The notes under the pieces are model-generated. The model saw only the letters and a list, made by a program, of their open reading frames with translations. It searched no databases and was not told where the DNA came from. A stretch of DNA of 64,000 nucleotides, from positions 880 through 64,879 of the forward strand of contig JAGOSC010000005.1 of NCBI GenBank assembly GCA_018062515.1, given 5' to 3'. The stretch's first letter is position 1. Each line of letters opens with the position of its first letter. The DNA comes from Candidatus Omnitrophota bacterium (GTDB taxonomy: Bacteria; Omnitrophota; Gorgyraeia; Zapsychrales; Zapsychraceae). This document shows positions 22,019 through 52,088 of this stretch, in pieces. The translations under genes were made by a program, and so were the position numbers.

Positions 22019-25000
22019 ATGATGATTTTTAAAAGAAATAAAAGAAATTTAACCCGAAAAATAACTTCCACCTTTGTCTTATTTTCATTTATTTTCTCAT
22101 CAATACTACCTCCTCAAGTCTCGGCGCAGAGCGTATTCCATTTACCTATACCTGGGACCCTGTTTAATGTTACAAATACCTTTAATCCTTTTATCATTCA
22201 AGGGCTTACTGTAGATCCGCAAAATCCTCTTCATTTCAGTTTTATTATTGACACCGGCGACACGCAAACAAACGATCCAGACGCTTTCCGCTTAGAATCT
22301 ACAAAACTAGTCAAATATTTCTTAGCATCCTTAACCGTTCCCGAAGATCAAATGTGGGTTAACCTTTCTCCGTATGAAGGCAACCGCATTATTTCGGACA
22401 CATTTGGTCAAACCGAAATGGGCCGTGACTTATTAGCTCAAGATTATATTCTCAAACAAATGTCGGCTTCTTTAACGTATTCAGAAGAAGAATTGGGTGA
22501 AAAATTTTGGCACAGGGTCCACCAACGCGCAAAAAAAGAATACGGCGTTAAAGATATTCCTTTAAATACTTTTAATAAAGTATGGATCATTCCTCAGAAG
22601 GCAACCGTTTATGAACATGACGGCAGCGCGTATGTCGTCAATAGCCGGTTAAAAGTAATGATGGAAGAAGATTACTTAGCCTTAAACAAAAATATCGGTG
22701 AGCAAGCTTTTGGTATGAATAATGTCAAGCAAGATGAGGCGGAATCCACGAGTAAAGTTACTTCCGCCATCATTAAAGAAATTATTATCCCGGAACTCGA
22801 GAAAGAAGTGAATGAAGGCAGCCATTTTGCCAATTTGCGTCAAATTTATCAGTCGATGATTTTAGCGACCTGGTACAAAGTGAATTTAAAAGAATCACTT
22901 TTAGGAAAAGTTTATATTGATCAAAATAAAGTCCAAGGAATTGATTTAAACGACAAAAACGCGAATCAGAAAATTTATGAACAATATTTAGCCGCCTTTA
23001 AAAAAGGTGTTTACAACTATATTAAGGAAGACTACGATTCAGCCACTCATAAGTCAACACCTCGTCAATATTTCGCCGGCGGATTTGTTCCAAAAACCGA
23101 AGATAATGCGACTTTAGCAGAATTGATCACACGAGAGAAGACCACTCGTTTAGCCGCTACGGATCAGGCAGCTTTAACTCCGAAAGGAAACCAGATTCGA
23201 GCTGATTTCGCTTTATTAGAAGACTTAACCGATGAAGATGCTCCAAAGGTACAAAAACCGATTGAAAAAATTGAAGACGCGCAGATAGCTGTGGACCCTA
23301 ATTGGGTTGAGGACTATTTGGAAAATCTTTTCCCTGAAAACAGCTTTCCTAAACCAGTCAAACAAGAACCAGTCATTATCAGCAAAGAAAGAAAAGAATT
23401 AGAAGACGAATTAATCGCCAATCGTTCTCAATTCTCGGGCTCTAGAATAAATCGGAATATTAAGGAAAAAACAGGGCTTGACGTTCCCGAGGACACTGTC
23501 GATTATTTCGTCGAGCATAGTGGAACCCTCCCTGGATTAAATCACCGTGCTGACCGTTCCCAGGTTATAGGGCAACTTATCCGCAATCATCGTCCTTATG
23601 AAATCTCTAAATTATTTGCCTTATCAGAATCCAAAAATTTTGAAAGAAAATATTATCCTGCCTGGATCCAAGCTTTATCAAAAATATTTACTTTTTTGAA
23701 AGATAAAAATTCAACCATTAATACAGAATTAACCGTTCAAGTCAATTTAGACGGAATTCTTTTAATTAAAGACGGCTCGGGAGAAGAACTCAAGGCGTTT
23801 CAGAAATTGGATCAATTGCACACGGAAAAAGCTTCCGTCGGTGCACTGGCCCTTCAAATTGTCAAATTATTAACCCATGATTACGACGGTTTGGAACTCA
23901 CCAACACTAAAGAATTGTCAGATGATTTAGTATCCATCTTTAATATTTTCGGAATCAAGCCGACGGTGATTAATGATGCGTGGATGCAAACTGTCCTGGG
24001 ATACGGAGATTCTTCATTAAATCTTCAAGCTCTAAAAGAAGGCGTTGAAGTAACTGAAGCTGATGTCGACACTTATCTTTTCCGTCTGGACACAGAAAAA
24101 AGTTTAGCTCGTCAAGCCGGAGAGACTGTATATCTTTCTACGCGCTCAGAAGCCGTCGCTGAAATGATTAAAGAAAATAAATATGATTCTGCTCTTTTAG
24201 CCTCCATCGATGAAAAGGCTTTAACACCGGAAATTCTTACTGCTTTTGGCGGAAATGTAACGGCCGCACAAACGGTCGTGGCCGAGCGTCTTGAGGCTAT
24301 GCGCGTCGCTGATCCGAATGCCACCGTCGAGCAAGCTGTCGCCCGTTTAGCTTGGGAATATAAGCCGCGCGATATTCAAAACGTTTTTCCTGGAGACAAC
24401 TGGAAATTTATGTTTTTGGCCGCCAAAGCCGGCATGAAAGCTCCGATTCTTTTATTAGACTTGGAAGACGCAGTTGCGACAACTCGTAAAGAAATTGCCC
24501 GCGGTGTTATCGTACAATTGATCCGGGCTTTTAAAGGTGAAGGATTAACACAAGATGAATTTGATTTCTTGCAGAAGAACGCGCTTCAGGCTGATGATGA
24601 AAAATATCCGATGACTAGTTTCTTTACACAAAGTCTTGTCGACGGAAAAACTGTTTATACGTTAAATCCTGAAAATCAATTCCATAAAGATCAAATGGTT
24701 CTTTTCCGCCCGAATAATTTAAGAACAAAGTGGTCGGCAGGGGATTATTCTCAAGTTTTTCGTAAAGTCGGTCATTTGGTAGACGGTATTTATATGCCTA
24801 AAGTAGAAGGCCCAGAAGATATCAAAATCGGCGCGTCTATTTTACGCGCCATTCAGAAAGAACAAAACTGGGTCGTTGGTCGTCACAAAATTTTTGTTTT
24901 AACCGAACTTCCCGGCGCTGTTTTGACCGCTGAAAATATTTTAAAAATAGCTCCTGAAGTTGAAGAAGTTCAATTAGGAGTCGTCGATTACACCGCAGCG

Positions 25001-28000
25001 ACGGGTGGAAAAAATCAAGTTCAAATCGAACAATTTCCATTTATGCGTTATGCCTTATTACGCTTGGTTGAAGCCGCTAATAATATAGGGAAATCCGCCG
25101 GTTTAGGTATTACCGTTCAATTTACTCCAGAAGCAACAGCCGAGGATACAGTCAAGGCTATTAATATTGGCCTTCATCGCAAATGGAGCGTTCATCCAGC
25201 GCATTTGAAAGGCATGGAATCATTCATCGGAAAATTCCCAAAGATTGTCCGAAAAGATATTCAATATGATGAACTACAAGGATTTGATTTGGTACAGCTA
25301 GATCAATACGCTAGTGAAAGCCGTCCAATTTTAGCTCCTAAAGTTTTAACACCTAAAGATGTGGTTTTATCCAGAGCTGTGGTCACTGTTTCATCCGGAA
25401 ATATTGATGGGCTTAAAAAAGCTCTGGATTCAAATGCTGATACTATTATTTTGGATTTCGGGAAAAAAGAAAATTTGTCTGAAATTAAAAAAATATTAGT
25501 TCAGGCTAAAACAACAAAGAGTATTCTTGTTGTCGATGAGCTTGATTCCCTACAATCAATTAAACAAATTGTAACTGAGTTAAATGGATATTTTCAAGGA
25601 TTTAACCTGAATAACATACAGAATGCATCAACAGTAAGAGATGTGGATGGATTGTTATCAGAAGCAGAAAGTGATTTGGGATTAAACGCAGGCAGCTTAA
25701 AAATTGCCGTCAGCTTTAATGACCCGCAAGTGGTCGAGGAGCAATCCCGCTATCTCGGCACCGATCCAGCTAAAGCTCTTTTGTATTCCAGTCAACGCCT
25801 CAGCTGGGCCATCTTGAATTTGCCTACCATGCCGACTGAAGATTTAGATGATCCGGAAACGAGAGGATACAATTATTATCATTCTTTATTTATTGCCATG
25901 ACCGCTCATGCCGAAGTCGATTCCATCGACGGTTATAGCGCGGATGAGAATTTAACAGAACAAGTTGCGACCTCAGCCATTTGGGGATTTCAAGGAAAAC
26001 TAGCTAACTTGAATCAAGTTGATGAAATTACTGAAGCCATGAGCCCGCAGCGAGCTGGAATTATGCCAGAATTTTCTACTCCAGAGGAACGTAAAGCTTG
26101 GTTAGCTACTGCCGAAGGAAAAATTTATGTAGCACGTTGGAAAAATTCATTAGAACGAGATTTGGAACTGATGGATCTGTATGCCGAAGCGGATCAAGAA
26201 CGGCAATTAGGTGCGGTAGGTTATAAGGATCCTTTAACCGGCGCTATTGAAATCGTCGACGCTGCTTCAGCTCGAATTCCATTCCGACAATTAGAAAAAG
26301 CTTTAAAGACAAATCAATTAACCGATACGGAAAAAGTTCGATATGCAAAATCACGAGAAAAATTACTTTTAGCCATGCGTCCAGGCGGACGAGAAGGCAG
26401 CGGTGAAAAAGTTTTTGCCGGGCAAAAAATTACAGCTCCGGCCATTGTGATGCGTCCTTGGATGGTTAATGCGTTTGCTAAAGATGGCGATCAAAACCGT
26501 TATCATTTAGATGAAGCTTATGCCAACGCCTCAAAATTTAAAGGATTAGTTGCTCATGGATTATTGACGGTAACTAAGGCTTTAAGTTCTTTAAAAGCTC
26601 AATTACCGGCTTATAAAATTGAAGAAGTCGACGACGCTAAATTCTTAGCTCCTGTACGCTTTAATGATACGATTACCCCGGTCATTGATGTTACGAGTGT
26701 CGACAATGAAAAAGCCAATGTAAAAATTAGTGTAATCAATCAAGACGGAAAAACAGTCAGTGAAATCAAAGTTTTATTAATAGAAAGCACTGATTCTCAA
26801 ATCATTCCAAAAATTAATAATGATTCTTTAAAATCAGCAGAAAAGGTGCCGGCTTCTATTCCGGCCGTCATTTACGATTTTACTGATCCACAAAGTCCTC
26901 GAGAACAAACGTTCAAGCAGGAAATCACATCCAGTTATTTAGAAAATGTTCAAGGATCTAATTTGATTACAAGCCGGGATTTATTAAGTCAATTAGCTGC
27001 CTTTAAAATGATGGCCGGTACTTCCGCCAATGCCGTCCCAGGCCACATATTATTGAATGCAACAAATGTAAAATTCGGAGCTGAAATTCATTTAGGTGAT
27101 GTATTGACCGCCAAAGCTACTGTTCCTGCAGCTGATCAAATTAAATTGACTAAAGACAATCTTCCTAAAGTTCCAGTCACGATTGAAATCACGAATCAAA
27201 ATGGAGAAATGGTTTTAAAAGGACAAGTATTAAAACTCATGGAACCGGGTAAAGATCGAGCGATGCTGGCCAAAAAACCATACCTTCTGCCAAGAGGAAA
27301 AATTGTTACATCGCCGGATGAACTTCCAACACATATGGAAGCATATGTAGTCCGACGCGGTGAGCATGGTGACCCAATTGATGCGTTTAAAAAATCCATT
27401 CAACCCGTTCCCGATGTGGGCGATTATGAAGTCCTTGTCCAAGTTATGGCTGGAGGATTAAATTTTAATGGAACATGGGCCCTTCAAGGTCTTCCCATTT
27501 CTCCATTTACTTATCCTTTGAATAAATTCCACGATGAACAACGCTTAGGTAGTGATGCTTCAGGCATTGTTGTGGCCGTTGGCAAACATGTCACACAATA
27601 TAAAATTGGTGATCAGGTTGTTATGGCTACCGGTGAAGATGACCGCGCTGAAAAAGATCCTGATCATGGCGATACCATGCAAAAACGAACGTTTGTTATC
27701 ACCGGGTATGAAACTCCGGATGGAACGTTCGGTCAATTTGTCGCTTTGGATGAACGTCAAGTACATCCGAAAGAGGCAAATATGACTTGGGAACAAGCCG
27801 CCAGTTATCATTTAGTCGCCGACACAGCTTGGCGAGATATGAAATACAAACTGGGTGTTAAAAAGGGAGATACTGTATTAATCTGGGGGGCATCAACAGG
27901 AGTAGGAGCTTTTAATGTCCAGATCGCTAAATATTTAGGAGCCAAGAATATTGTGGCGGTTGTTTCCAGTGCTTCAAGAGCGGAACAAGCCAGAAAATTC

Positions 28001-29941
28001 GGGGCCACTCAAGTGATTAATCGAACTGAACTTCCTAAAATTTTGGGATACAGTGATGCTGAAATTTGGGGTGAACTCTCTAACAATCCCCAAAAGCAGC
28101 AAAAACAAATTGAAATGTTAAATAAGTTCAGAGAATATTTTCTTTCTCTAACGGGTGGTGAATTAGCCGATGCCGTTGCGGAACAAATCGGCCAAACAAC
28201 TTATCCAATTAGTCAATATTTAGCTAAAGATTCCGGAAAAGTCACTCATTTTGCCGGAACATTTGGTTTCAAATTTACCTTTATGGGAAAAGATTTACCG
28301 TTGGATGAGAATACAAAAAAGCAAAAAACGCCACTTCAAATGTTAGAAGAAGCTGGTGTACGCGACGCTAAACGAGTGCTGATATATGGTGCTGATCAAC
28401 TTTCTAAAGAAATTTTTGAGGAAGTTAAAAAATACAGCACTAATATTGCTTTCATCGTTAAAAGCCAAGAAGAACAAAATACAGTCGAAAACTGGGATTT
28501 AGAAAAGACATATATCAAAGGTATTGTAGATTTAAATCCGATTTCTTTTCCTGAAGATATGCCTACACCTCCTCATCCAGACATCCCGGCAGATAAACAG
28601 GCAAAAAATCTTGAAGAATTTAATGAGTATCGTATCAAAGTACTGGATCCAATCCGAGGATCGGTTGTAAAAGCTTTAGGCGGTCAGCCCGACTTAATTG
28701 TTGAAAGAGCGGGGAACAAAAATACTTTGGATATCAGCGTATTTGTCGTGCGTCCTCATGGCGTCGTAACATATGTTGAATCAACAAAAGGAAAACGTTT
28801 AGTCTTTGATGCCCGATTTATTTGGATGTTCCAAAAGCAAATTTATCCTTGGGTTCTTGGGACTCATTATGCGAACCACACACAAACCAAGGAATTAAAT
28901 GATTTAGTTTTAAAAGGCATCATAAGCGTACCTGAACCCGAAGTATTTTCTTGGGATGAATTACCCTTAGCCCAGCAGAAAATGTATGAAAATAAATTAA
29001 TCGCAACCAAAGCGTCTGTTCTTATCGGAGCTGTTAAACCAGGACTGAAAGGTCTGCCCGAAGAAACTGCGGCAGAACTGCCCATAAAAAACGAAGAGGG
29101 ATTGCTTCCGGCTTTCATGATTACCTCAAAAATCATAGAACCCACCATTTCTGATAATCAAATCAATCTTTATAAGAATCCGGCCATTGATCTATCTGAG
29201 AAATTCGCAATATTAGCTGCTAAATCAAAATTTAAAGACCCAAATAGCGCCCTAGGAATGTATGCCTTGGAAACAAAGGCATTTATACCTGCCATTGTTG
29301 AAAAAGTTTTCGGGAACACGGCGGAATTAGGGGAATTTAAATTAAAGGGGTTTACATCATTTGCTCCTAGCGGATTAGATGCTAATGATCAAATTCGAAC
29401 GACATTGCAAGTAAGCCGCAATTTTAAGATCGACGGGGATGATGTATACCTTAATGCCCGTATATCTTTGGATAAATTTTTTGTCGATTCCGGAAAATGG
29501 AAAGAGTTGTTGGTCGGAAATCAAATACTAAAAATGCCAATTAACGACTTAAACTCTTTAGGTTTTTACTTACCGTCTGAAAAAATTGACTCCGCTTTGA
29601 TTGGAGAAAAAAACGATGTTAGCCTGAATAATAATATCGCTGAATCCAAAAAAGAATACGGCGGTATTGACTTTAATTCAAAATTTTTGAATCTTCAGAT
29701 CAAGCGTGATGGACGAGGAATTCCATTGCCGGTGAATCAGCAGCCATTGATGAACATTCACATCAATGGATTTTATCCGGTTCTCATTGAAACAATGCCG
29801 ATTAATTTACCATTGATTCTCGGTTTAGAGACGGAAGAAGAAGATTCGAATTCAAGAACTCAACAAAGTTCACTTGATCCTTTGCATAAACAAGAAGACA
29901 TACGTATCGAAGATTTAGAAACAGCCAGCATACTAAACTAA
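22019..29941 (+). CDS. giant secreted mosaic protein A (2640 aa): signal peptide + shared N-module + CitE-like lyase + MaoC double-hotdog + crotonyl-CoA carboxylase/reductase-like MDR + shared C-module
   Basis: RBS GAGAGGAAA. Signal peptide ...SILPPQVSA|QS. N-module 22127-23085. CitE signature ILLLDLEDAV at ~24445. Hotdog VAHGLLTV at ~26545. CCR-like VLVQVMAGGLNFNGTWALQG at ~27430 with Rossmann LIWGASTGVGAFNVQIAKYLGA. C-module YGGIDFNSKFLNLQIKRDGRGIPLPVNQQP at 29655-29941. Confidence 0.85.
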   Translation: MMIFKRNKRNLTRKITSTFVLFSFIFSSILPPQVSAQSVFHLPIPGTLFNVTNTFNPFIIQGLTVDPQNPLHFSFIIDTGDTQTNDPDAFRLESTKLVKYFLASLTVPEDQMWVNLSPYEGNRIISDTFGQTEMGRDLLAQDYILKQMSASLTYSEEELGEKFWHRVHQRAKKEYGVKDIPLNTFNKVWIIPQKATVYEHDGSAYVVNSRLKVMMEEDYLALNKNIGEQAFGMNNVKQDEAESTSKVTSAIIKEIIIPELEKEVNEGSHFANLRQIYQSMILATWYKVNLKESLLGKVYIDQNKVQGIDLNDKNANQKIYEQYLAAFKKGVYNYIKEDYDSATHKSTPRQYFAGGFVPKTEDNATLAELITREKTTRLAATDQAALTPKGNQIRADFALLEDLTDEDAPKVQKPIEKIEDAQIAVDPNWVEDYLENLFPENSFPKPVKQEPVIISKERKELEDELIANRSQFSGSRINRNIKEKTGLDVPEDTVDYFVEHSGTLPGLNHRADRSQVIGQLIRNHRPYEISKLFALSESKNFERKYYPAWIQALSKIFTFLKDKNSTINTELTVQVNLDGILLIKDGSGEELKAFQKLDQLHTEKASVGALALQIVKLLTHDYDGLELTNTKELSDDLVSIFNIFGIKPTVINDAWMQTVLGYGDSSLNLQALKEGVEVTEADVDTYLFRLDTEKSLARQAGETVYLSTRSEAVAEMIKENKYDSALLASIDEKALTPEILTAFGGNVTAAQTVVAERLEAMRVADPNATVEQAVARLAWEYKPRDIQNVFPGDNWKFMFLAAKAGMKAPILLLDLEDAVATTRKEIARGVIVQLIRAFKGEGLTQDEFDFLQKNALQADDEKYPMTSFFTQSLVDGKTVYTLNPENQFHKDQMVLFRPNNLRTKWSAGDYSQVFRKVGHLVDGIYMPKVEGPEDIKIGASILRAIQKEQNWVVGRHKIFVLTELPGAVLTAENILKIAPEVEEVQLGVVDYTAATGGKNQVQIEQFPFMRYALLRLVEAANNIGKSAGLGITVQFTPEATAEDTVKAINIGLHRKWSVHPAHLKGMESFIGKFPKIVRKDIQYDELQGFDLVQLDQYASESRPILAPKVLTPKDVVLSRAVVTVSSGNIDGLKKALDSNADTIILDFGKKENLSEIKKILVQAKTTKSILVVDELDSLQSIKQIVTELNGYFQGFNLNNIQNASTVRDVDGLLSEAESDLGLNAGSLKIAVSFNDPQVVEEQSRYLGTDPAKALLYSSQRLSWAILNLPTMPTEDLDDPETRGYNYYHSLFIAMTAHAEVDSIDGYSADENLTEQVATSAIWGFQGKLANLNQVDEITEAMSPQRAGIMPEFSTPEERKAWLATAEGKIYVARWKNSLERDLELMDLYAEADQERQLGAVGYKDPLTGAIEIVDAASARIPFRQLEKALKTNQLTDTEKVRYAKSREKLLLAMRPGGREGSGEKVFAGQKITAPAIVMRPWMVNAFAKDGDQNRYHLDEAYANASKFKGLVAHGLLTVTKALSSLKAQLPAYKIEEVDDAKFLAPVRFNDTITPVIDVTSVDNEKANVKISVINQDGKTVSEIKVLLIESTDSQIIPKINNDSLKSAEKVPASIPAVIYDFTDPQSPREQTFKQEITSSYLENVQGSNLITSRDLLSQLAAFKMMAGTSANAVPGHILLNATNVKFGAEIHLGDVLTAKATVPAADQIKLTKDNLPKVPVTIEITNQNGEMVLKGQVLKLMEPGKDRAMLAKKPYLLPRGKIVTSPDELPTHMEAYVVRRGEHGDPIDAFKKSIQPVPDVGDYEVLVQVMAGGLNFNGTWALQGLPISPFTYPLNKFHDEQRLGSDASGIVVAVGKHVTQYKIGDQVVMATGEDDRAEKDPDHGDTMQKRTFVITGYETPDGTFGQFVALDERQVHPKEANMTWEQAASYHLVADTAWRDMKYKLGVKKGDTVLIWGASTGVGAFNVQIAKYLGAKNIVAVVSSASRAEQARKFGATQVINRTELPKILGYSDAEIWGELSNNPQKQQKQIEMLNKFREYFLSLTGGELADAVAEQIGQTTYPISQYLAKDSGKVTHFAGTFGFKFTFMGKDLPLDENTKKQKTPLQMLEEAGVRDAKRVLIYGADQLSKEIFEEVKKYSTNIAFIVKSQEEQNTVENWDLEKTYIKGIVDLNPISFPEDMPTPPHPDIPADKQAKNLEEFNEYRIKVLDPIRGSVVKALGGQPDLIVERAGNKNTLDISVFVVRPHGVVTYVESTKGKRLVFDARFIWMFQKQIYPWVLGTHYANHTQTKELNDLVLKGIISVPEPEVFSWDELPLAQQKMYENKLIATKASVLIGAVKPGLKGLPEETAAELPIKNEEGLLPAFMITSKIIEPTISDNQINLYKNPAIDLSEKFAILAAKSKFKDPNSALGMYALETKAFIPAIVEKVFGNTAELGEFKLKGFTSFAPSGLDANDQIRTTLQVSRNFKIDGDDVYLNARISLDKFFVDSGKWKELLVGNQILKMPINDLNSLGFYLPSEKIDSALIGEKNDVSLNNNIAESKKEYGGIDFNSKFLNLQIKRDGRGIPLPVNQQPLMNIHINGFYPVLIETMPINLPLILGLETEEEDSNSRTQQSSLDPLHKQEDIRIEDLETASILN

Positions 29942-29957
29942 TAAGGGACGCAGCTAA

Positions 29958-45566: not shown

Positions 45567-48500
45567 ATGAAAAAGAAAATTTTCCTTATGAAAAAGTTTG
45601 TGTCTATATTAATTCTTTGCGCATTTACAATGAACACCATTGTTCCGCCGAGTTTGGCGCAGAGCATATCGTCAACGATCCTACCGCCGGTAGGTTCAAT
45701 GCTAACCATGACACCATCGTTTGTTCCGATACAAATCAAGGGTCTAACCATCGATCCCGAAAATCCTTTGCATTTTGAATTTATCATCGATACCGGCGAT
45801 TCAAAAATTGTAAACGATGAAGAATTGCGCGCCGAAACAACAAAACTGGTTAAATATTTTCTTACATCGCTGACCGTTCCGGAAGAAGATATGTGGGTCA
45901 ATCTTTCTCCTTATGAAGGAAATCGTATTGTTACCGACGGATTCGGACAAACGCAAATGGGTCAGGATCTCTTAGCGCAAGATTATATTCTAAAACAAAT
46001 CACCGCATCATTAATGTTCCCTGAAAAAGAGTTGGGCAAAAAGTTCTGGGATAAAATTTATCAGAGAGCAGAACAAGAATACGGAACTAAAGATATTCCA
46101 ACGAATACATTTAATAAAGTATGGATCATTCCGGAAAAAGCCACGGTTTATGAGCATGACGGCAGTGTTTTTGTTATCGAAAGCCGTTTAAAGGTTTTAT
46201 TGGAAGAAGATTATTTTGCCCAAAGAAAATCTGAAGGAGCCTCCGTCGATCCAAATAAATCTGTGTATACCGACATCGTTCGAGAAATTTTAATTCCGGA
46301 GATTGAAAAAGAAGTCAATGAAGGACAGCATTTTGCCAAACTGCGTCAAATTTATAATGCGATGATCTTAGCGACTTGGTATAAAACCAATCTGCAAAAA
46401 TCCGTCTTAGGACAAATTTATGTTGATCAAAATAAGTTGGAAGGCATTAACGGCGAGAATAAAAACGCTAAGTCAGATATTTATAATCAATATCTCAAGG
46501 CTTTTAAGGCCGGCGTTTATAACTATATTAAAGAAGACTATGATTCGACAACTCGGTCAACGATTCCCCGACAGTACTTCTCCGGTGGATTTGCCGCTAC
46601 TTCAGATAAAGCGGCATTATCCACCGTAGTTAAGGAATCAAACCTGGGTCAAAACAACACGCCGTTATCCGACGAGGACTCAGCACTCATCGCAGATGCA
46701 TTATCCGCGCGAGGCAAACAGTTTAATACAGATATCCTCCTTAGAGAAGCCGTCTCGGGGATAACTTCCGGCGATGAAGCTATTCTTAGTTCTTTTACTG
46801 AAGATGAAATTGTGTCACGAATTCTAAATACTCCATATGATCCGATAAAAATTGGTCAGCAAATGCGGGCATGGTACGCTGATGGTAACCTCGACGCTGA
46901 TATCTTAAAAGCAACCTTGACCAATTTAAGCCGCCGTGTTGTGTACGTAAAAAGTACAGCTGATTTAAAAGACTATGAAAAAATGAAGCCTTTTTTGATC
47001 AAGACCTGGGCGCTGCTTAAAGAAGCGAATGACTCTCAGTATACCGAAAGCATTTCGATCATTGAGAGAACCATGGCCTACTCCTTATATATTTCGGATC
47101 CAAAATTATTTTATGCCGAACCGATTGAATCCATGGTCGCTGATTTAAGAAAAATTAAAGACAGCACCGCGGATGAACGTATTAAATTTGATGAAGCTTG
47201 GACACTGATTTCCAAACGCTACAGCCAAAAAAATCCGCGAGATATTTTTTATATCGCCCGGGCGATGAAACGTCCCAAGGCCTCAGATATTGTTAAAAGT
47301 TCTTTATTTAAAGATTTCATGGAATTGCGGGATGCCAAAGATCCGCTCGACCCTCAAAAAAATGAACGTTACACGCCGACGGAAAATGAGATTCAAGAGG
47401 CCATGTCGATCGGGTTCAAAGATAAATTAGAAGCCCGTGAATATGTCATTGCCAAACGAGACGCCCAATATGATGACGCATCCGTACTTACGGGAATAGG
47501 GACTTTTGTGGATCCAAAAACCGGAAAAGAGACAAAAGTTATGGTTGTTGCTTTACAAAATGGAAGTGATATTAAGGAATTATTTGAAAGAAATGCCGGT
47601 TTAAACCGCCCGTGGGGATATTGGAAAGCGATCCGCGCTTTTCGTTTGGCGGAATCTACAGAGTATAGAATTCCAATTGTCACTTTTGTTGACACGAAGG
47701 GGGCGGATAACACATTACCGTCGGAAATCGCCAATCAATCGGGCGTGGTTTCCTACGCCATACAAGTTCAACAAGAGCTGACGGTTCCGTTTATTTCCAT
47801 CATCAATATCGACGGCGTAAGTGCTGGAGGCATGGTTGTCACTCAAGGCGGCGCATTATATATGATGGATTATTCGAATCGATATTTAGCTGCTCCGGCA
47901 GGGTCTTTAGATATTATCGGCAAAGCAAAAACGACTATTCCCGTCGCTGAGCAACGCGGCGTGAAAGATACAATCGGAATGCAAATCATTGAAAAAGAAG
48001 TGCAAAGTGTGTGGGGAGATGCTTTTCATGCGGACGCGAAAAGATCATTGGAAGAATTAAAAACCATTTCCGGAATTATCCCTGAAGCGCTCGGTGGTGC
48101 GCATCGATTCCCTGAACTTTCTTATGAAATGATAGGCGATGTCATTCACAATTACTTAAAGGAAAATGCCAACAAAACAGTTGCGCAGCTTAAAGCCCAG
48201 CGTCATGACTTTTTCCGTCGATTAGGTGGAATTCCTGAAAAAGATTTTAGAATCGTCGACGATCAAGATGTCCCAACCTTGACCAAATCCATCATCACAC
48301 CGGATGAATTTGCACAGTTGGTGGAAACTATTCTTGACAATAAACAAAATACCGAACGTATGCTCCATGCGTATCGCCAGTACACTTTTACACTGAAATC
48401 AGCGAAACAAAAAAAAGAGGTTGTCGCTGTATGGATGAAAGTTTTTAGAGCTAACCGCAGCTGGTTTGATAATCGCTGGATGGTCAAAGTTTTAAATGCT

Positions 48501-51500
48501 TCGTTAACAGAATTTGAAAAGAAGGGAACGCAAAATGCTAAAACTCTTAAAGAGGCGATGATCAAGAGTTTCTTTCCGGAACCGCGCAGTATTGCTGATC
48601 GTCTCGAACAATTTGTCGACCGCAAAAAAGATGGAAGTTTGGAGATTATTGAAGAATTAAATGCGAATTTAGCCGAGACACCCATCATCGATTTTGATGA
48701 AACCATTCATGAAGCCTATCCCTTTTTGAAGATTGATGGCCAGGATATTGCGGCCAAGTTTGACCAATTCCGCAAATTAACCGGCTCATTAACCGGCGTT
48801 TGGACCGGTTATGTTAAAATCGGCGGAGTAAAGACGATGCTGGTTTTAAAAGATCCACGCTGGTTGAACGCCAGCGCAACAACGGCCGTCATCGGCGAGA
48901 AAGTGACCCGCGCCTTGGAAGATGTGCGTCAAAAATTTGATAAAACCAAAGAAAAAATTCCCGTGATCATGTTGACGACGGCGAGCGGTGCTCTTCAGCA
49001 AGAAGGCCAGCGCGCTATGGACCCGTTAAATAAAAAACTCGCTGGATTGGTTGAATTGAAGGAACGAAATATTCCCGTCGTGATTTTAGGTGCCTACGAA
49101 GTTTTCGGTGGTGATAGCGCCTCCGACGCGACATATCAAGATGCTGATCTTTTACTATTAGAAAAAGGGACAAGAAAAGGATTCACCGGCCACCCGACGC
49201 TGACCGGAGAAAATGATCGACGTAAGAAAAAAGGTGTTAAAGATACTTCGCAAAATGAGGTTGTGCCATTAACCGTTTTGCCTTTTCCATATCAGACTGA
49301 TCAGTTCTTAGACCGGCTTGGATTTATCGATGGAATTGTGACTGTCGAGCAAGAAACGCCTTTATTACAAGCTTTCTTACAAGACGTGACTAATAAAGAA
49401 CTGACTGTTAAATCCGAAGAAATTAAAGAACTTTTAAAAACCTTTAAAGACAAACGTGAAATGCGAGTAAAGCTTGTACGCGCCTTGGAACGAAAACCAT
49501 TTAAGACGACGTTTCAAAATGGAAATGAGGCTGAAGTTTTTAATCTGCGAAATAAGGCAAGACTATTGATGAATCAGCCAGGCATTGGCTGGCGTTATGA
49601 AAAGCCCGCAACAGGCCAAGAAACGGTGAATTCAGATGAAGCCATGCTGACCAACGTTTATGAAAATGCTGAAACGATGTATCAAAATTTGCCGCAAGAT
49701 ATTGAAAAATTTATGATGAGTACGGCATCGAAAATTAACGGCGGTGAAGCTGTAATGAATGATCAAAAAGCGATTACGGACATGATGTCCTTAATCGGAG
49801 AAATTTATGAAAAAGAAATGGACGGCCTGACGACGAAAAATTATCACAATCATATGCATAATCTTTCTGTCTCATTTGGAAGTTTAATTCTCGCCCAAAA
49901 TGCAAATTTAATTAAAGATAAGAATGATTTGATTATCGTCTTTTTAGGATCATTGTTTCATGATTTTCATGTGCGCGATGTCCGTCCTTTGCGTGAACGC
50001 GGCCCGGCAACGCCCGCCTTGGTTAATGAAACATTAGGTATTGAAGGATCAGGTGGGCAGCTCCCTGATTTATTAGCAATAGATGGATTCGTTTATAAAA
50101 ATCCAGCTATTGCCAATGCGCGTTATGGAGTGGTCGGAACCGATGTTAAAAAATCGGCCCGGGAAATCTATCAAACTTTAACTGGTAATGATGGTTCAAA
50201 TGGAATTTATAATGAAATTGCCGCCATTATACGGCGAACTGATTTTTCATCGGATCTCCCGCCAGCTATCGATAAGTATAAAAACCGTACTTTTGTTGTC
50301 CGCGATTTTATGGATGCAAAGGTTAATGAATGGTCACAAACGAAATCAGAAATATCCGACACTGATTTAACGCAACTCATTAATCAGGTGGAAAAACAAT
50401 ACCAGGATATTTATACTGATATGGCTCGGGACAAAGAATTGACTCCTGTAGGAAAAAGGGAAGTTTCCGAGAAGTGGGTAACACGTCAGCGTAATATTGA
50501 ACTGGCCTTCTTAAATGCTTTAACTAAAGTCAGATCTTCTCGACGATTAAATGTTTACCAAATAGCCAATCGTGTTGAGCTGGCCGATCAATCTGTTGCC
50601 TCGTGGATCGGATCCCCGGATATTGCCAAAAATATCACGTTAGGACTTAAAGAGGAACTGCCTTTTGTCAGCATCGAAGCTAATTATCCCTTATTTTATA
50701 CACCGCAATTATTACCCACACGGGTTTTATCACGCTTAAGAGATCTTCCCCTCAATTTAAGAATTAATTTCTTAAAAAATATGGAATATTTTGCCAGTTA
50801 TAGTACTGATTTCGCTAAAAATCTGAATGATGAGCAGAAAACGAAAATAAATGAATTTGTTTATAAGATGATGTTAAATTCTTTAGGAGAGTGGGACAAG
50901 ATTGAAGAAGATGTCCTTATGGAATTACGACTATATGTAGATGAAGAAGGTCAGATTAAACAACAAAGAATGGATCCTGAAGTAGTGCAGGGACTGAGAA
51001 AATCTATTATCGGAACAGTCTTTAACCTACGTGACATACATTCAATGGTTGCACAAAGAACAGTGAAAAAAATAAACTTGGCAGCAAATCAAACGATCAT
51101 TGAAGAAGGTGATGTCATTAATCACAAGAATTCAGAAGGTCTTTACATTATTATTTCCGGGGAAGTTAAGGTTATTGTCGGTGGAAGTCCTGTGGCAACG
51201 CTTAAGGCGGGGGACCATTTCGGAGAATTGGCCATCATCAGTCGCCTACCGCGCAATGCCACTGTTGTTTCCACTAGTCCTACAGTATTGGTTAAAATGC
51301 CGAGCAGATTTTTACATGGATTAAGATTAGTCAGCGATGAATTTAGTGATGCATTATATGCTGAAGCCAGAGCTAAAACGCGAAAAGGAACATCGATTCT
51401 GCCATATTGGGTTGAATCAGAAATTGTCATGAAAATGGCGCGGTCAAACCAAATATTAAATGAACAATCTAAAATTTTAGCTTGGCAGATGCCACAGTTT

Positions 51501-52088
51501 GTTAGGGGAAATGAAAATAAGAGCGAACGTTTAACACTCCAAAGCGTATATGACCGTTTACCAGCTGCCCTTTATGAATTTGAAAATGATTATCCTGAAA
51601 TAGGACCGATTAAGCTTGTTGGAATTGCCTCTAACGGACCGTCCGTCAGTGTTTATGTGGATCCGATTGACCATAAGTCGATTGTGGTTTTCTCCGATGA
51701 TTTCTTTAAGAGAGACTTGGACAACTTTAATCAACGTATAAAAACGGCTTTGCAGACTGCGATGAATGACGCGGCCATGTTCGCTGATGATGAATCTCCC
51801 AACGCTTTAACCAAAGGTGGTATTGATTTAAATCCCCAGGCGCTGGACCTAAAAATTAAAAATACCGGCACACAAATTCCTTTTCCCGTCGATGAGAACA
51901 TCGAACAGTTTATCGATATCAAAGGATTTTCTCCTGTCATTATTAATATAACCCCGATCCACAATCTTCCGCTTATTTTAGGAATCATTGATGGGAAGAA
52001 TGACCAATCTCCCCAAGTTAAAAGTGATCATTTTCCGTTATATAACGTGAAAGGTCGTTTTGAATCCGTCGAGGATTATCCTTCCTAA
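45567..52088 (+). CDS. giant secreted mosaic protein D (2173 aa): signal peptide + shared N-module + carboxyltransferase alpha (AccA-like) and beta (AccD-like) domains + HD-like domain + cNMP-binding domain + shared C-module
   Basis: ATG 6 nt after the C stop. Signal ...IVPPSLA|QS. AccA-like RIPIVTFVDTKGA...PEALGGAHRFPE. AccD-like VIMLTTASGALQQEGQ...VVILGAYEVFGGDSAS. cNMP block GDHFGELAIISRLPRNATVVS. C-module GGIDLNPQALDLKIKNTGTQIPFPVDEN at 51815-52088. Confidence 0.85.
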   Translation: MKKKIFLMKKFVSILILCAFTMNTIVPPSLAQSISSTILPPVGSMLTMTPSFVPIQIKGLTIDPENPLHFEFIIDTGDSKIVNDEELRAETTKLVKYFLTSLTVPEEDMWVNLSPYEGNRIVTDGFGQTQMGQDLLAQDYILKQITASLMFPEKELGKKFWDKIYQRAEQEYGTKDIPTNTFNKVWIIPEKATVYEHDGSVFVIESRLKVLLEEDYFAQRKSEGASVDPNKSVYTDIVREILIPEIEKEVNEGQHFAKLRQIYNAMILATWYKTNLQKSVLGQIYVDQNKLEGINGENKNAKSDIYNQYLKAFKAGVYNYIKEDYDSTTRSTIPRQYFSGGFAATSDKAALSTVVKESNLGQNNTPLSDEDSALIADALSARGKQFNTDILLREAVSGITSGDEAILSSFTEDEIVSRILNTPYDPIKIGQQMRAWYADGNLDADILKATLTNLSRRVVYVKSTADLKDYEKMKPFLIKTWALLKEANDSQYTESISIIERTMAYSLYISDPKLFYAEPIESMVADLRKIKDSTADERIKFDEAWTLISKRYSQKNPRDIFYIARAMKRPKASDIVKSSLFKDFMELRDAKDPLDPQKNERYTPTENEIQEAMSIGFKDKLEAREYVIAKRDAQYDDASVLTGIGTFVDPKTGKETKVMVVALQNGSDIKELFERNAGLNRPWGYWKAIRAFRLAESTEYRIPIVTFVDTKGADNTLPSEIANQSGVVSYAIQVQQELTVPFISIINIDGVSAGGMVVTQGGALYMMDYSNRYLAAPAGSLDIIGKAKTTIPVAEQRGVKDTIGMQIIEKEVQSVWGDAFHADAKRSLEELKTISGIIPEALGGAHRFPELSYEMIGDVIHNYLKENANKTVAQLKAQRHDFFRRLGGIPEKDFRIVDDQDVPTLTKSIITPDEFAQLVETILDNKQNTERMLHAYRQYTFTLKSAKQKKEVVAVWMKVFRANRSWFDNRWMVKVLNASLTEFEKKGTQNAKTLKEAMIKSFFPEPRSIADRLEQFVDRKKDGSLEIIEELNANLAETPIIDFDETIHEAYPFLKIDGQDIAAKFDQFRKLTGSLTGVWTGYVKIGGVKTMLVLKDPRWLNASATTAVIGEKVTRALEDVRQKFDKTKEKIPVIMLTTASGALQQEGQRAMDPLNKKLAGLVELKERNIPVVILGAYEVFGGDSASDATYQDADLLLLEKGTRKGFTGHPTLTGENDRRKKKGVKDTSQNEVVPLTVLPFPYQTDQFLDRLGFIDGIVTVEQETPLLQAFLQDVTNKELTVKSEEIKELLKTFKDKREMRVKLVRALERKPFKTTFQNGNEAEVFNLRNKARLLMNQPGIGWRYEKPATGQETVNSDEAMLTNVYENAETMYQNLPQDIEKFMMSTASKINGGEAVMNDQKAITDMMSLIGEIYEKEMDGLTTKNYHNHMHNLSVSFGSLILAQNANLIKDKNDLIIVFLGSLFHDFHVRDVRPLRERGPATPALVNETLGIEGSGGQLPDLLAIDGFVYKNPAIANARYGVVGTDVKKSAREIYQTLTGNDGSNGIYNEIAAIIRRTDFSSDLPPAIDKYKNRTFVVRDFMDAKVNEWSQTKSEISDTDLTQLINQVEKQYQDIYTDMARDKELTPVGKREVSEKWVTRQRNIELAFLNALTKVRSSRRLNVYQIANRVELADQSVASWIGSPDIAKNITLGLKEELPFVSIEANYPLFYTPQLLPTRVLSRLRDLPLNLRINFLKNMEYFASYSTDFAKNLNDEQKTKINEFVYKMMLNSLGEWDKIEEDVLMELRLYVDEEGQIKQQRMDPEVVQGLRKSIIGTVFNLRDIHSMVAQRTVKKINLAANQTIIEEGDVINHKNSEGLYIIISGEVKVIVGGSPVATLKAGDHFGELAIISRLPRNATVVSTSPTVLVKMPSRFLHGLRLVSDEFSDALYAEARAKTRKGTSILPYWVESEIVMKMARSNQILNEQSKILAWQMPQFVRGNENKSERLTLQSVYDRLPAALYEFENDYPEIGPIKLVGIASNGPSVSVYVDPIDHKSIVVFSDDFFKRDLDNFNQRIKTALQTAMNDAAMFADDESPNALTKGGIDLNPQALDLKIKNTGTQIPFPVDENIEQFIDIKGFSPVIINITPIHNLPLILGIIDGKNDQSPQVKSDHFPLYNVKGRFESVEDYPS

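What the first reader, a model, noticed from the sequence alone, without database searches (positions are those of the whole stretch)
22019..52088. ~30 kb operon of four giant genes encoding mosaic multi-enzyme proteins capped by shared N- and C-terminal modules
Four co-directional ORFs of 2640, 1727, 3472 and 2173 aa are packed with gaps of 16, 0 and 6 nt and are preceded by a consensus-like promoter. All four share the same architecture. Each has a Sec-type signal peptide, then a ~310-aa module that is clearly paralogous across the four (roughly 60-70% identity by eye), then a long unrelated core of fused metabolic enzyme domains, then a conserved ~60-aa C-terminal module and an acidic tail. 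I do not recognise this arrangement from any described system. The domains are not repetitive adhesin/RTX-type repeats. I saw no NRPS/PKS condensation, KS, carrier or TE motifs. It looks like a cassette system in which interchangeable enzyme cargos are fitted with common targeting or assembly ends.
Basis: seen in the sequence. Interest (0 to 1): 0.97.

Follow-up and report, generated by a model that had tools for sequence, protein, structure and literature searches.

The report
Omnitrophota end-capped exported multi-enzyme protein family
Four tandem giant genes belong to a huge, previously unnamed family found only in Omnitrophota bacteria, in which an export signal, one shared head domain and one shared tail domain bracket interchangeable sets of normally cytoplasmic enzymes (here an acyl-CoA pathway, elsewhere even glycolysis), which raises the question of where these bacteria run that metabolism.

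Summary
Four uninterrupted co-directional ORFs (2640, 1727, 3472 and 2173 aa; gaps of 16, 0 and 6 nt) share the same layout: a Sec-type signal peptide, a ~315-aa N-module, a variable enzyme core, a ~65-aa C-module and a tail. The window is an Omnitrophota MAG contig.

The bracket defines an enormous phylum-specific family. There are 8,390 clusters at 50% identity. The N-module always lies at residues ~40-360. The C-module is at the extreme C-terminus in 82/82 full-length hits from one search. Neither module matches Pfam, NCBIfam, PDB sequences or PDB folds.

Cargo is cassette-like and often forms a coherent pathway:
- Here: acyl-CoA ligase, four ACAD units, crotonyl-CoA carboxylase/reductase, MaoC hydratase, malyl-CoA-lyase-like domain, B12 mutase and carboxyltransferase, a set resembling the ethylmalonyl-CoA pathway.
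- Elsewhere: GAPDH-PGK-enolase-aldolase, TIM with malate synthase and isocitrate lyase, glycogen enzymes, response regulators, kinases.

Multi-enzyme giant (>=10 kAA) proteins with signal peptides are already described in Omnitrophota preprints, but I found no description of the shared end modules. My best reading, which is inferred, is that these are Sec-exported modular carriers. The ends would be common sorting, anchoring or assembly handles, and the cargo would work outside the producer's cytoplasm at the host interface. I rate this a new variant of a known kind, with high interest.

The parts
21823..21851 (+). sigma-70-like promoter match TTGACA-17-TATACT, ~170 nt upstream of G1
   Evidence: 11/12 match; consensus scan only, not evidence of function
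22019..29941 (+). G1, 2640 aa (NCBI MBP9853540.1, annotated 'zinc-binding dehydrogenase'): SP, N-module, lyase, hydratase, Ccr, C-module
22019..22129 (+). G1 Sec-type signal peptide (K/R-rich n-region, hydrophobic core, 'PPQVSA|Q')
   Evidence: sequence; hydropathy; family statistics
22136..23086 (+). G1 N-module (aa 40-356), conserved family domain with no recognised fold
24650..25093 (+). G1 HpcH/CitE-like (malyl-CoA-lyase-like) domain, aa 878-1025
   Evidence: Pfam PF03328 1.6e-15; NCBIfam malyl-CoA lyase models; PDB 4l7z and 5ugr
26420..26719 (+). G1 MaoC (R-specific enoyl-CoA hydratase-like) domain, aa 1468-1567
   Evidence: Pfam PF01575 3.1e-11; PDB 5cpg
27326..28996 (+). G1 crotonyl-CoA carboxylase/reductase-like domain (aa ~1770-2326) with a ~170-aa insertion
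   Evidence: TIGR01751 341.7 bits against a cut-off of 378.55; PDB 4gi2 2.3e-69 and 6eqo
29651..29851 (+). G1 C-module (aa 2545-2611), followed by an acidic tail
   Evidence: HMM 108 bits; alignment
29958..35141 (+). G2, 1727 aa: SP, N-module (30084-31004), two acyl-CoA dehydrogenase units (31440-32561 and 33300-34673), C-module (34857-35063)
   Evidence: The second ACAD unit lacks the catalytic Glu motif ('IGGSNNV'), read
35142..45560 (+). G3, 3472 aa: SP, N-module (35256-36197), acyl-CoA ligase (36486-37931), ACAD (38826-39959), methylmalonyl-CoA-mutase-type barrel (40608-42137 plus a second partial stretch), B12-binding domain with DxHxxG (43701-44033), C-module (45291-45488)
45567..52088 (+). 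G4, 2173 aa (MBP9853543.1): SP, N-module (45678-46595), carboxyltransferase alpha-like (47469-48227) and beta-like (48687-49382) domains, cNMP-binding domain (51075-51317), C-module (51810-52007)
29941..30074 (+). G1/G2 junction. It is duplicated (81% identity) at the G2/G3 junction 35125-35258 and includes the shared 'GGAACGCAGCTAAGTGATTA' around the GTG starts
   Evidence: (repeat D6)

Best explanation
WHAT IT IS (shown). The four genes are a tandem array from a very large family restricted to Omnitrophota. A Sec-type cleavable signal peptide and a ~315-aa N-terminal domain, plus a ~65-aa C-terminal domain, bracket a freely exchangeable core. The C-terminal domain has a conserved beta-hairpin 'GGIDLN..LxLqIkRDG', then a proline-rich hydrophobic stretch 'GFxPVIIxITPxxNLPxLLG', then a short acidic or mixed tail. 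The core is built from domains that normally work in the cytoplasm.

In this window the cargo is one coherent acyl-CoA set: acyl-CoA ligase, four ACAD units, crotonyl-CoA carboxylase/reductase, MaoC hydratase, a malyl-CoA-lyase-like domain, a B12-dependent acyl-CoA mutase and a carboxyltransferase. In that order these are the chemistry of the ethylmalonyl-CoA route. Catalytic and cofactor motifs are mostly intact.

HOW IT WORKS (inferred).
1. The polypeptides are threaded through Sec and the signal peptide is removed.
2. The two conserved ends then serve as common handles for what follows. This could be sorting or anchoring in the envelope, or N-to-C docking that closes a molecule or links molecules. 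The four co-expressed proteins would thereby be placed together.
3. The cargo works outside the producer's cytoplasm, most plausibly at or in the attached host or prey cell. CoA esters, ATP, NADPH, FAD and B12 are available there. This amounts to an externalised, host-directed metabolism of an epibiotic parasite or predator.
4. The described >=10 kAA 'multi-enzyme' giants of the phylum would be the long form of the same phenomenon.
For: Architecture.
- The N-module profile hits 8,390 clusters at 50% identity, always at residues ~40-360, in proteins of 420-5312 aa.
- The C-module lies within 90 aa of the C-terminus in 117/147 representatives, in 80 complete ORFs from 79 genomic loci and in 82/82 full-length hits.
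- Tandem arrays of 2-4 genes are common.
- All named records are Omnitrophota apart from likely mislabels.

Export signal.
- In 146 representatives the n-region net charge is >=+2 in 141, an AxA-like site follows the hydrophobic core in 140, and a twin-arginine motif occurs in only 2.
- G1-G4 have only two hydrophobic segments each: the signal peptide and the C-module stretch.

Cassette cargo.
- document it. Examples are GAPDH-PGK-enolase-FBA in P0424 and TIM with malate synthase and ICL in P0409.
- The acyl-CoA theme recurs with a different domain order in L014/P0373 and P0393.

Enzymes look active.
- Ccr scores 341.7 bits, and the N, E and H residues align at the positions that, from my recollection of the ECR literature, form the Ccr CO2 pocket.
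- The DxHxxG and GGxIP B12 motifs, the adenylation motifs, and the catalytic Glu in 3 of 4 ACAD units can be read.

Possible N-C docking.
- In the AF2 model of a minimal N+C protein the C-module hairpin has pLDDT 78-94 next to a linker below 45, and pTM is 0.68.

Biological context.
- Omnitrophota are ultra-small host-dependent epibionts (PMC10066038).
- For V. archaeovorus, open cytoplasmic contact and transfer of predator RNA into prey are reported (PMC13153191).
- Giant Omnitrophota proteins with the same Pfam repertoire are 94% SP/TM-bearing, and their authors place the metabolic domains outside the inner membrane.
Against: - No experiment shows export, signal-peptide cleavage, localisation or activity.
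- Sec moves unfolded chains, and FAD-, B12- and NADPH-dependent enzymes have no known cofactor supply in a periplasm.
- No conserved neighbouring secretion or sorting gene was found in 79 loci.
- The end modules have no recognisable fold, so their role is a guess.
- N/C covariation was inconclusive.
- Central glycolytic enzymes among the cargo could mean these proteins serve the cell's own metabolism.
- The array sits among ordinary housekeeping genes, not in an obvious virulence island.
- The ethylmalonyl-CoA reading rests on domain families only. Ccr is just below its equivalog cut-off, no epimerase, thiolase or biotin carboxylase/BCCP was detected, and one ACAD unit lacks the catalytic Glu.
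Confidence: 0.45

Rival explanations
1. Own-metabolism metabolons. The proteins serve the bacterium's own central and acyl-CoA metabolism. The hydrophobic N-terminus and the C-module stretch merely tether multi-enzyme chains to the inner membrane, or hold them in an unusually active periplasm-like compartment. Fusion and end-to-end association channel intermediates in an ultra-small cell.
For: - Cargo is often pathway-coherent and covers core steps: GAPDH-PGK-enolase-FBA, TIM, PGI, PGM, glycogen enzymes and the acyl-CoA set.
- Catalytic motifs are intact.
- In ~1.3 Mb of flanking DNA, every PGK, enolase and TIM hit lay inside family proteins (a biased sample).
- The genes sit in a housekeeping neighbourhood.
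- A natural precedent exists for fused CoA-ester enzymes: propionyl-CoA synthase 6eqo is the second-best PDB hit.
- Published reconstructions credit Omnitrophota with glycolysis.
Against: - The positive-inside rule and AxA sites in ~96% of members predict export of everything after the signal peptide.
- No internal TM helix could return the cargo to the cytoplasm.
- No ATP, CoA or NAD(P)H pool is known in a periplasm.
- Cargo also includes HTH DNA-binding, RNA-polymerase alpha-CTD, response-regulator, ankyrin and HEAT domains, which are not metabolic.
- Domain scores are well below those of canonical housekeeping enzymes and the domains carry insertions.
- The window encodes a normal free-standing phosphoglycerate mutase.
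Confidence: 0.22
2. Self-assembling surface coat or adhesin. The C-module of one molecule docks onto the N-module of another, in a donor-strand-like way. This builds chains or a mesh on the cell surface (the 'velamen'). The enzyme folds act mainly as bulky building blocks or as binders of host molecules, not as a working pathway.
For: - Both ends are far more conserved than the cores across thousands of paralogues, as expected if any N must fit any C.
- The C-module hairpin is confidently placed in the AF2 model, while its hydrophobic, proline-rich part is neither helical nor confident, as if it lacked a partner.
- Tandem arrays are frequent.
Against: - Catalytic and cofactor-binding motifs are retained.
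- Pathway coherence within arrays, and its recurrence in other genomes, argue for selection on activity.
- No multimer model or covariation supports docking.
- There are no adhesin-type repeats.
Confidence: 0.15
3. Polymorphic-toxin or competition effector system. A conserved N-terminal secretion or translocation domain delivers variable toxic modules into rival bacteria.
For: The general layout (conserved N-terminal region, hypervariable remainder, many paralogues per genome) resembles polymorphic toxins. Some cargos are deaminases, including a weak MafB19-like hit in L012. Weak, non-significant Foldseek hits go to ClyA-type MakA/MakE toxins (E 0.2-1, probability <=0.08).
Against: - In polymorphic toxins the variable toxin is the C-terminal tip and is followed by an immunity gene. 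Here the C-terminus is the conserved part and no small immunity-like genes follow.
- Cargo is dominated by metabolic and regulatory enzymes, not nucleases, pore-formers or ADP-ribosyltransferases.
- No RHS, TPS, LXG or PT-VENN domains were found.
Confidence: 0.05
4. Assembly or annotation artefact. The giant ORFs would be chimeras or collapsed repeats of ordinary separate enzyme genes.
For: MAG contigs can be chimeric. The four genes share paralogous ends that could mislead an assembler. Some relatives are split into two ORFs.
Against: - The paralogous DNA is only 62-79% identical, with no long exact repeats.
- A second assembly is identical over 12.9 kb.
- The reading frames are uninterrupted over 30 kb.
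- More than 250 independent proteins from many samples show the same N...C architecture.
Confidence: 0.02

Closest known systems
Omnitrophota 'multi-enzyme metabolic cluster' giant proteins (Nielsen & Lui 2026, bioRxiv 10.64898/2026.06.07.730766; West-Roberts et al. 2023, bioRxiv 10.1101/2023.11.21.568195)
   Same: Same phylum. Many unrelated cytoplasm-type Pfam domains are fused in one polypeptide. The repertoire overlaps (PGM/PMM, starch synthase, GT1, ROK, response regulator, methyltransferase, GNAT, HATPase, radical SAM). An N-terminal signal peptide is present. Function is unresolved and is suggested to be extracytoplasmic or host-directed.
   Different: Those studies cover proteins of >=10,000 aa (up to 147,155 aa) with tens to hundreds of TM helices. 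The present proteins are 0.7-5 kAA with no internal TM helix. Neither paper mentions a shared N-terminal domain or C-terminal module. Whether the giants carry these modules was not tested.
MARTX toxins (multifunctional autoprocessing RTX toxins of Vibrio and relatives); comparison from my own knowledge
   Same: Conserved N- and C-terminal regions flank a mosaic, strain-variable array of enzymatic effector domains. The ends are thought to deliver the middle into another cell.
   Different: MARTX ends are long glycine-rich RTX-type repeats. Secretion is by T1SS without a Sec signal peptide, and a cysteine protease domain releases the effectors. None of these features is present here, and the cargo here is housekeeping-type metabolism.
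Type IX secretion cargo (Sec signal peptide + functional domains + conserved C-terminal sorting domain)
   Same: Sec signal peptide at the N-terminus, a variable functional middle and a small conserved C-terminal domain shared by many otherwise unrelated proteins of one phylum.
   Different: The C-module does not match Por_Secre_tail or T9SS CTD models. T9SS cargo has no shared N-terminal domain. T9SS is a Bacteroidota-lineage system.
Two-partner secretion exoproteins (TpsA/CdiA)
   Same: A signal peptide is immediately followed by a conserved ~250-300-aa N-terminal domain that acts as the secretion handle for very long proteins with variable remainders.
   Different: The TPS domain is a beta-helix (Pfam Haemagg_act). 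The N-module is predicted to be mixed alpha/beta with long helices and has no Pfam or fold match. No TpsB-like neighbour was found. The C-terminus is conserved here and variable there.
Ethylmalonyl-CoA pathway enzymes and fused CoA-ester enzymes such as propionyl-CoA synthase (PDB 6eqo)
   Same: The cargo of G1-G4 contains the enzyme types of the ethylmalonyl-CoA route: Ccr, B12 acyl-CoA mutase, ACAD, MaoC-type hydratase, malyl-CoA-lyase-like domain and carboxyltransferase. Fusion of successive CoA-ester steps has a precedent in propionyl-CoA synthase.
   Different: Those enzymes are cytoplasmic, separate or trifunctional, and lack signal peptides. Here 3-6 units are fused behind an export signal and between the family end modules. 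No epimerase, thiolase, reductase or biotin carboxylase/BCCP was detected, and substrate specificities are unknown.

Membership tests
Omnitrophota SP / N-module / cargo / C-module family (defined here) | Sec-type signal peptide directly upstream of the N-module | tested here: met
   G1-G4 sequences. In the family, 141/146 have a positively charged n-region, 140/146 have an AxA-like site and 2/146 have a twin-arginine motif. This is a sequence-rule prediction only.
Omnitrophota SP / N-module / cargo / C-module family (defined here) | ~315-aa N-module at residues ~40-360 | tested here: met
   HMM scores of 500-531 bits for G1-G4. 8,390 clusters match the profile.
Omnitrophota SP / N-module / cargo / C-module family (defined here) | ~65-aa C-module within ~90 aa of the C-terminus | tested here: met
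   101-109 bits for G1-G4. Present in 117/147 and 82/82 of the other members examined.
Omnitrophota multi-enzyme giant proteins (Nielsen & Lui class 1) | Length >=10,000 aa | tested here: not met
   The four proteins are 1727-3472 aa.
Omnitrophota multi-enzyme giant proteins (Nielsen & Lui class 1) | Many distinct enzyme Pfams tiling one polypeptide, signal peptide or TM present, Omnitrophota origin | tested here: met
Omnitrophota multi-enzyme giant proteins (Nielsen & Lui class 1) | Multiple internal TM helices (about one per 370 residues) | tested here: not met
   Only the signal peptide and the C-module stretch are hydrophobic (Kyte-Doolittle scan).
NRPS/PKS megasynthases | Condensation, ketosynthase, carrier (PP-binding) or thioesterase domains | tested here: not met
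   None appears in the Pfam scans of G1-G4 at E<=0.01. The AMP-binding domain scores best against acyl-CoA ligase models.
RTX / MARTX toxins | Glycine-rich RTX repeats, cysteine protease domain, C-terminal T1SS signal without a Sec signal peptide | tested here: not met
   No such Pfam hits. A Sec-type signal peptide is present.
Type IX secretion cargo | C-terminal Por_Secre_tail / T9SS CTD | tested here: not met
   The C-module gives no Pfam or NCBIfam hit even at E<=10.
Two-partner secretion TpsA | N-terminal TPS (Haemagg_act) beta-helix domain and a TpsB partner gene | tested here: not met
   No Pfam hit. The predicted fold is mixed alpha/beta with long helices. No conserved neighbour was found.
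PEP-CTERM / exosortase-type sorting signals | Short motif, then a TM helix, then a basic cluster at the extreme C-terminus | tested here: not met
   The hydrophobic stretch is proline-rich and is followed by an acidic or mixed tail of 0-74 aa.
Tat-exported cofactor enzymes | Twin-arginine motif in the signal peptide | tested here: not met
   2 of 146 members and none of G1-G4.
Ethylmalonyl-CoA pathway | Crotonyl-CoA carboxylase/reductase | tested here: inconclusive
   TIGR01751 scores 341.7 bits against a cut-off of 378.55. Best PDB hit is Ccr 4gi2 at 2.3e-69. There is a ~170-aa insertion.
Ethylmalonyl-CoA pathway | B12 acyl-CoA mutase, methylsuccinyl-CoA dehydrogenase, mesaconyl-CoA hydratase, malyl-CoA/beta-methylmalyl-CoA lyase, propionyl-CoA carboxylase | tested here: inconclusive
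   The domain families are present: MM_CoA_mutase with B12-binding, ACAD, MaoC, HpcH/CitE-like and carboxyltransferase. No equivalog-level assignment was reached, and no biotin carboxylase/BCCP, epimerase, thiolase or acetoacetyl-CoA reductase was found.

The most novel reading that the evidence does not exclude
Omnitrophota possess a phylum-wide, previously unnamed protein-sorting or assembly system. Whole blocks of normally cytoplasmic metabolism and signalling (lower glycolysis, glycogen turnover, the glyoxylate shunt, an ethylmalonyl-CoA-like route, response regulators and kinases) are exported through Sec. They would then be held together or delivered by a new N-terminal domain and a new C-terminal docking or sorting module, so that the epibiont runs part of its metabolism outside its own cytoplasm, at or inside the host cell. 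The >=10 kAA 'multi-enzyme' giants would be covalent versions of the same assemblies. Genome-based metabolic reconstructions of the phylum would need revising, because they count these exported domains as ordinary cytoplasmic enzymes.
Probability: 0.25. Interest if true: 0.95.

Novelty: new variant of a known kind. Interest (0 to 1): 0.8.

Why it matters
- The family is very large: 8,390 clusters at 50% identity, with many copies per genome. Yet it has no Pfam or NCBIfam model, and its members are annotated by whichever enzyme they contain ('zinc-binding dehydrogenase', 'phosphoglycerate kinase', 'glucose-6-phosphate isomerase').
- Recognising the common bracket turns a puzzling list of giant multi-enzyme ORFs into one definable system with testable parts: a signal peptide, an N-domain of unrecognised fold and a C-terminal module.
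- If the sequence-predicted export is real, Omnitrophota place glycolytic, glycogen and acyl-CoA enzymes outside their cytoplasm. That bears directly on how these ultra-small epibionts exploit their hosts.
- It also bears on published metabolic reconstructions that count these domains as cytoplasmic pathways.
- If export is not real, the family is instead a new way of tethering and assembling metabolons.
- Either outcome gives a tractable entry point (minimal 440-550-aa N+C proteins exist) into the open question of what Omnitrophota giant proteins do.

Tried and rejected
1. Known-domain explanations for the ends all came back empty.
   - Pfam at E<=0.01 and E<=10, and NCBIfam.
   - PDB sequence and profile searches.
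   - The weak MakA/MakE (ClyA-type toxin) and Prc hits are not significant and were not used.
   - afdb50 was unavailable.
2. The length lists from the first two homologue searches suggested that typical members are short (<=555 aa, <=125 aa). This proved to be a tool property (hits of query-like length only) once the exhaustive representative search and a full-length query were run (versus 39 and 89).
3. A conserved neighbour gene as candidate sorting machinery was sought. Clustering all non-family ORFs of 79 loci found nothing beyond a response-regulator-like gene in 12 loci.
4. N/C covariation (MI-APC, 252 sequences) as a test of physical docking was inconclusive and underpowered.
5. A test for free-standing glycolytic genes found only family copies, but only in the fetched flanks, which are a biased sample. 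No conclusion can be drawn.
6. NRPS/PKS, RTX/adhesin, T9SS, TPS, PEP-CTERM and Tat readings were each rejected on a tested defining feature (see the membership table).
7. Repeat-collapse or chimera artefact was rejected.
8. A 98-sequence alignment for structure prediction failed. A 49-sequence alignment was used instead.

Full report
1. OBSERVATION

The window holds four uninterrupted + strand ORFs at 22019-29941, 29958-35141, 35142-45560 and 45567-52088. They encode 2640, 1727, 3472 and 2173 aa and are separated by 16, 0 and 6 nt. I call them G1-G4. A TTGACA-17-TATACT match lies at 21823-21851. It is a pattern match, not proof of a promoter.

All four proteins begin with a K/R-rich segment, a hydrophobic core and a 'PP..(S/Y)AQ' site. 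A conserved module follows. It is 57-62% identical to G1 within the module and 49-58% identical over the first 430 aa. All four end with a conserved ~65-aa module and a short acidic tail.

The DNA copies of the N-module are only 62-79% identical, and there are no long exact repeats. A Logan assembly of run SRR11088468 is identical to window 43591-56454. The G1/G2 and G2/G3 junctions are themselves duplicated.

2. SOURCE AND SURROUNDINGS

The proteins are NCBI entries from a 64,894-bp contig of a 'Candidatus Omnitrophica bacterium' MAG. G1 is annotated 'zinc-binding dehydrogenase' and G4 'cyclic nucleotide-binding domain-containing protein'.

The flanks are ordinary chromosomal genes:
- Upstream: homoserine dehydrogenase, a PLP-dependent (PALP) enzyme, a DFP-domain protein, phosphoglycerate mutase, an amino-acid kinase with ACT domains, an HMGL-like synthase with a LeuA domain, ValRS and BrkB.
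- Downstream: TPR, SUI1, a PF04445 SAM-dependent methyltransferase, serpin, rhodanese and FKBP proteins.

I saw no secretion genes next to the array.

3. CARGO OF THE FOUR GENES

- G1: an HpcH/CitE-like domain whose best PDB relatives are malyl-CoA/beta-methylmalyl-CoA lyases; a MaoC hydratase; and a crotonyl-CoA carboxylase/reductase-like domain. The last scores 341.7 bits on TIGR01751 (cut-off 378.55) and 2.3e-69 to PDB 4gi2, and carries a ~170-aa insertion.
- G2: two acyl-CoA dehydrogenase units.
- G3: an acyl-CoA ligase, an ACAD, a methylmalonyl-CoA-mutase-type barrel (492 bits) with a second partial stretch, and a B12-binding domain.
- G4: carboxyltransferase alpha- and beta-like domains and a cNMP-binding domain.

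Motifs read from the translations appear intact:
- adenylation motifs in G3;
- 'DGHDVG' (DxHxxG) and 'GGMIP' in the B12-binding domain;
- the catalytic Glu in three of the four ACAD units (G2's second unit has Gly instead);
- N, E and H residues aligned at the positions that, from my recollection of the ECR literature, form the Ccr CO2 pocket.

Placed in order, the domains are ligase, ACAD, Ccr, mutase, ACAD, hydratase, lyase, carboxyltransferase and mutase. That is the chemistry of the ethylmalonyl-CoA route. This is an inference from domain families. No epimerase, thiolase, reductase or biotin carboxylase/BCCP was found, and no NRPS/PKS domains.

4. THE ENDS DEFINE A HUGE FAMILY

A profile of the N-module hits 8,390 clusters (50% identity) among 1.84 billion representatives, 6,786 of them at E<=1e-30. 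The module always starts at residue ~40. The 150 best hits are 420-5312 aa long.

All were in Omnitrophota MAGs, a few of them titled 'uncultured Planctomycetales', and several loci often came from one genome.

HMM scans of the fetched loci and proteins show the bracket is the rule:
- 80 complete ORFs of 781-3349 aa carry N at the start and C at the end.
- 117 of 147 representatives do so, and the rest look truncated.
- 82 of 82 full-length hits from a whole-protein query do so.
- Minimal members of 438-549 aa consist of N plus a linker plus C only.
- Tandem arrays of 2-4 genes are frequent.
- Exceptions look like frameshift splits.

5. THE ENDS ARE UNKNOWN DOMAINS

- Neither module matches Pfam (even at E<=10), NCBIfam, or PDB sequences or profiles.
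- The AF2 model of the G1 N-module has pLDDT 72.8. The model of a minimal N+C protein has pLDDT 69.9 and pTM 0.68. Both are mixed alpha/beta with long helices and two long hairpins.
- In the N+C model the first part of the C-module (the 'GGIDLN..LxLxxxRDG' hairpin) has pLDDT 78-94 beside a linker below 45. This hints that it packs on the N-module. I could not inspect coordinates or PAE.
- A covariation test was inconclusive.
- The C-module's second half is a proline-rich hydrophobic stretch. Apart from the signal peptide, it is the only hydrophobic segment in G1-G4.
- Tails are 0-74 aa, rich in E, S, L and D, with loosely conserved 'LS(Y/F)', 'DP(M/L)D' and terminal '..LS.LN' motifs.

6. EXPORT SIGNAL

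Among 146 gene-called representatives, the n-region net charge is >=+2 in 141. An AxA-like site follows the hydrophobic core in 140. A twin-arginine motif occurs in 2. By standard sequence rules this is a Sec signal peptidase-I signal, so everything downstream is predicted to leave the cytoplasm. This is a prediction, not a demonstration.

7. CARGO ACROSS THE FAMILY

Pfam scans of 56 complete members gave response-regulator, HTH, methyltransferase, GNAT, protein kinase, PP2C, ROK, UDPGP, PGM/PMM, PPDK, GH116, HATPase, GGDEF, ankyrin, HEAT, aldose epimerase, glutamate dehydrogenase, HPr and RNA-polymerase alpha-CTD domains. Most families appeared in only one or two members, and the one member reported individually without any hit was P0387.

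The full-length search added core carbon metabolism. By source names and Pfam accessions this includes phosphoglycerate kinase, glucose-6-phosphate isomerase, triose-phosphate isomerase, enolase, GAPDH, class-II aldolase, FBPase, and glycogen synthase, branching enzyme and phosphorylase. It also includes isocitrate lyase, malate synthase, NDK and NAD-salvage enzymes.

I verified three architectures directly:
- P0424 is N / GAPDH / PGK / enolase / aldolase / C.
- P0409 is N / TIM / malate synthase / ICL / C.
- P0393 is N / ACAD / mutase / B12 / C.

The acyl-CoA theme of this window recurs with a different domain order in a tandem pair of another genome. One gene carries AprA-type MT, MeaB, mutase, B12 and ACCA. 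The other carries PPTase, ligase, AT, MaoC, HpcH and ECH. Cargo is therefore cassette-like and often pathway-coherent.

8. LITERATURE

- West-Roberts et al. (2023 preprint) and Nielsen & Lui (2026 preprint) describe giant Omnitrophota proteins, including a 'multi-enzyme metabolic cluster' class. Its Pfam repertoire overlaps the one above, and 94% of the proteins carry a signal peptide or TM helices. The 2026 authors place the metabolic content on the periplasmic or extracellular face and leave function open. Neither text mentions shared N- or C-terminal modules.
- Seymour et al. 2023 document ultra-small, host-dependent lifestyles and infer Embden-Meyerhof glycolysis from gene content.
- A 2026 paper on V. 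archaeovorus reports predator RNA in prey cells and cites micrographs with open cytoplasmic contact.
- An eLife paper proposes a predatory effector role for Omnitrophota giant proteins.

9. INTERPRETATION

Shown: the architecture, its scale, its restriction to one phylum, the lack of known homologues for the ends, the Sec-type signal, and the cassette nature and frequent pathway coherence of the cargo.

Inferred: the proteins are exported. The ends are common handles for sorting, anchoring or N-to-C assembly. The cargo works outside the producer's cytoplasm, most plausibly at or in the host, where its cofactors exist.

Main rival: the chains are membrane- or periplasm-tethered metabolons of the cell's own metabolism. 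Glycolytic cargo favours this rival, while the topology signals and the non-metabolic cargo count against it. A structural coat reading and a toxin reading are weaker, and an artefact is essentially excluded.

10. VERDICT

The phenomenon is related to the described Omnitrophota multi-enzyme giants. The end-module bracket, the mid-size family and its central-metabolism cargo appear undescribed. I rate it a new variant of a known kind, with interest 0.8.

The decisive tests are a census of bracketed versus free enzyme copies in complete genomes, multimer modelling of the N and C modules, export-reporter fusions, and localisation proteomics.

Noticed in passing
window 59502-61166 (with 57745-59502 and 61172-62569): A bacterial homologue of the vitamin-K-dependent gamma-carboxylase (HTTM domain 4.5e-49 plus VKGC lumenal domain 7.2e-32). 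It sits between a TPR-containing membrane protein and a PIG-L-type deacetylase.
   Followed up: no
window 53849-55177: Full-length serpin (Pfam 2.8e-127) with a hydrophobic N-terminus, downstream of the array. It is followed by a rhodanese and an FKBP protein.
   Followed up: no
window 100-2012: ORF6N-domain protein and phage-type integrase in a stretch of GC 0.33 against ~0.40 elsewhere. This may be a mobile-element remnant. It lies 20 kb upstream of the array, so is probably unrelated.
   Followed up: no
window 33300-34673 (G2, second ACAD unit): The second ACAD unit reads 'IGGSNNV' where the first unit has 'FEGANEV' and G3 has 'GEGTPQI'. The usual catalytic glutamate is therefore missing in one of the four ACAD units. 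It may be an inactive or differently wired subunit (read).
   Followed up: partly
window 29941-30074 and 35125-35258: The G1/G2 and G2/G3 junctions are 81% identical. The similarity covers the GTG starts, the upstream 'GGAACGCAGCTAA' (which encodes the end of G2 at one site but is intergenic at the other) and near-identical signal peptides of G2 and G3. This is a trace of tandem duplication or gene conversion.
   Followed up: partly
L017, L020, L021, L055, L063, L065: In several MAGs a family gene is split into an N-module ORF followed directly by an ORF ending in the C-module. These are frameshifts, sequencing errors or pseudogenes.
   Followed up: no
P0014, P0075, P0119; loci titled 'uncultured Planctomycetales' (e.g. 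L002, L010, L012, L014): Family members occur in records labelled Heimdallarchaeota, Pacearchaeota, Sciscionella or Planctomycetales. These are most likely mis-binned or mislabelled Omnitrophota contigs.
   Followed up: no
P0473 (1502 aa): One family member has a precomputed hit to PF18962, which from memory is the T9SS-type Por_Secre_tail family, inside its cargo. It still ends in the regular C-module.
   Followed up: partly
P0122, P0152, P0154, P0234, P0239: Short ORFs (65-115 aa) consisting of little more than a C-module lie on long contigs (49-248 kb). They could be stand-alone C-module proteins or 3' fragments of disrupted genes.
   Followed up: no
tool behaviour, versus 39 and 89: the search for homologous proteins listed only hits of roughly query-like length. 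Short-module queries therefore gave a misleading picture of family lengths until the exhaustive search and a full-length query were run.
   Followed up: yes
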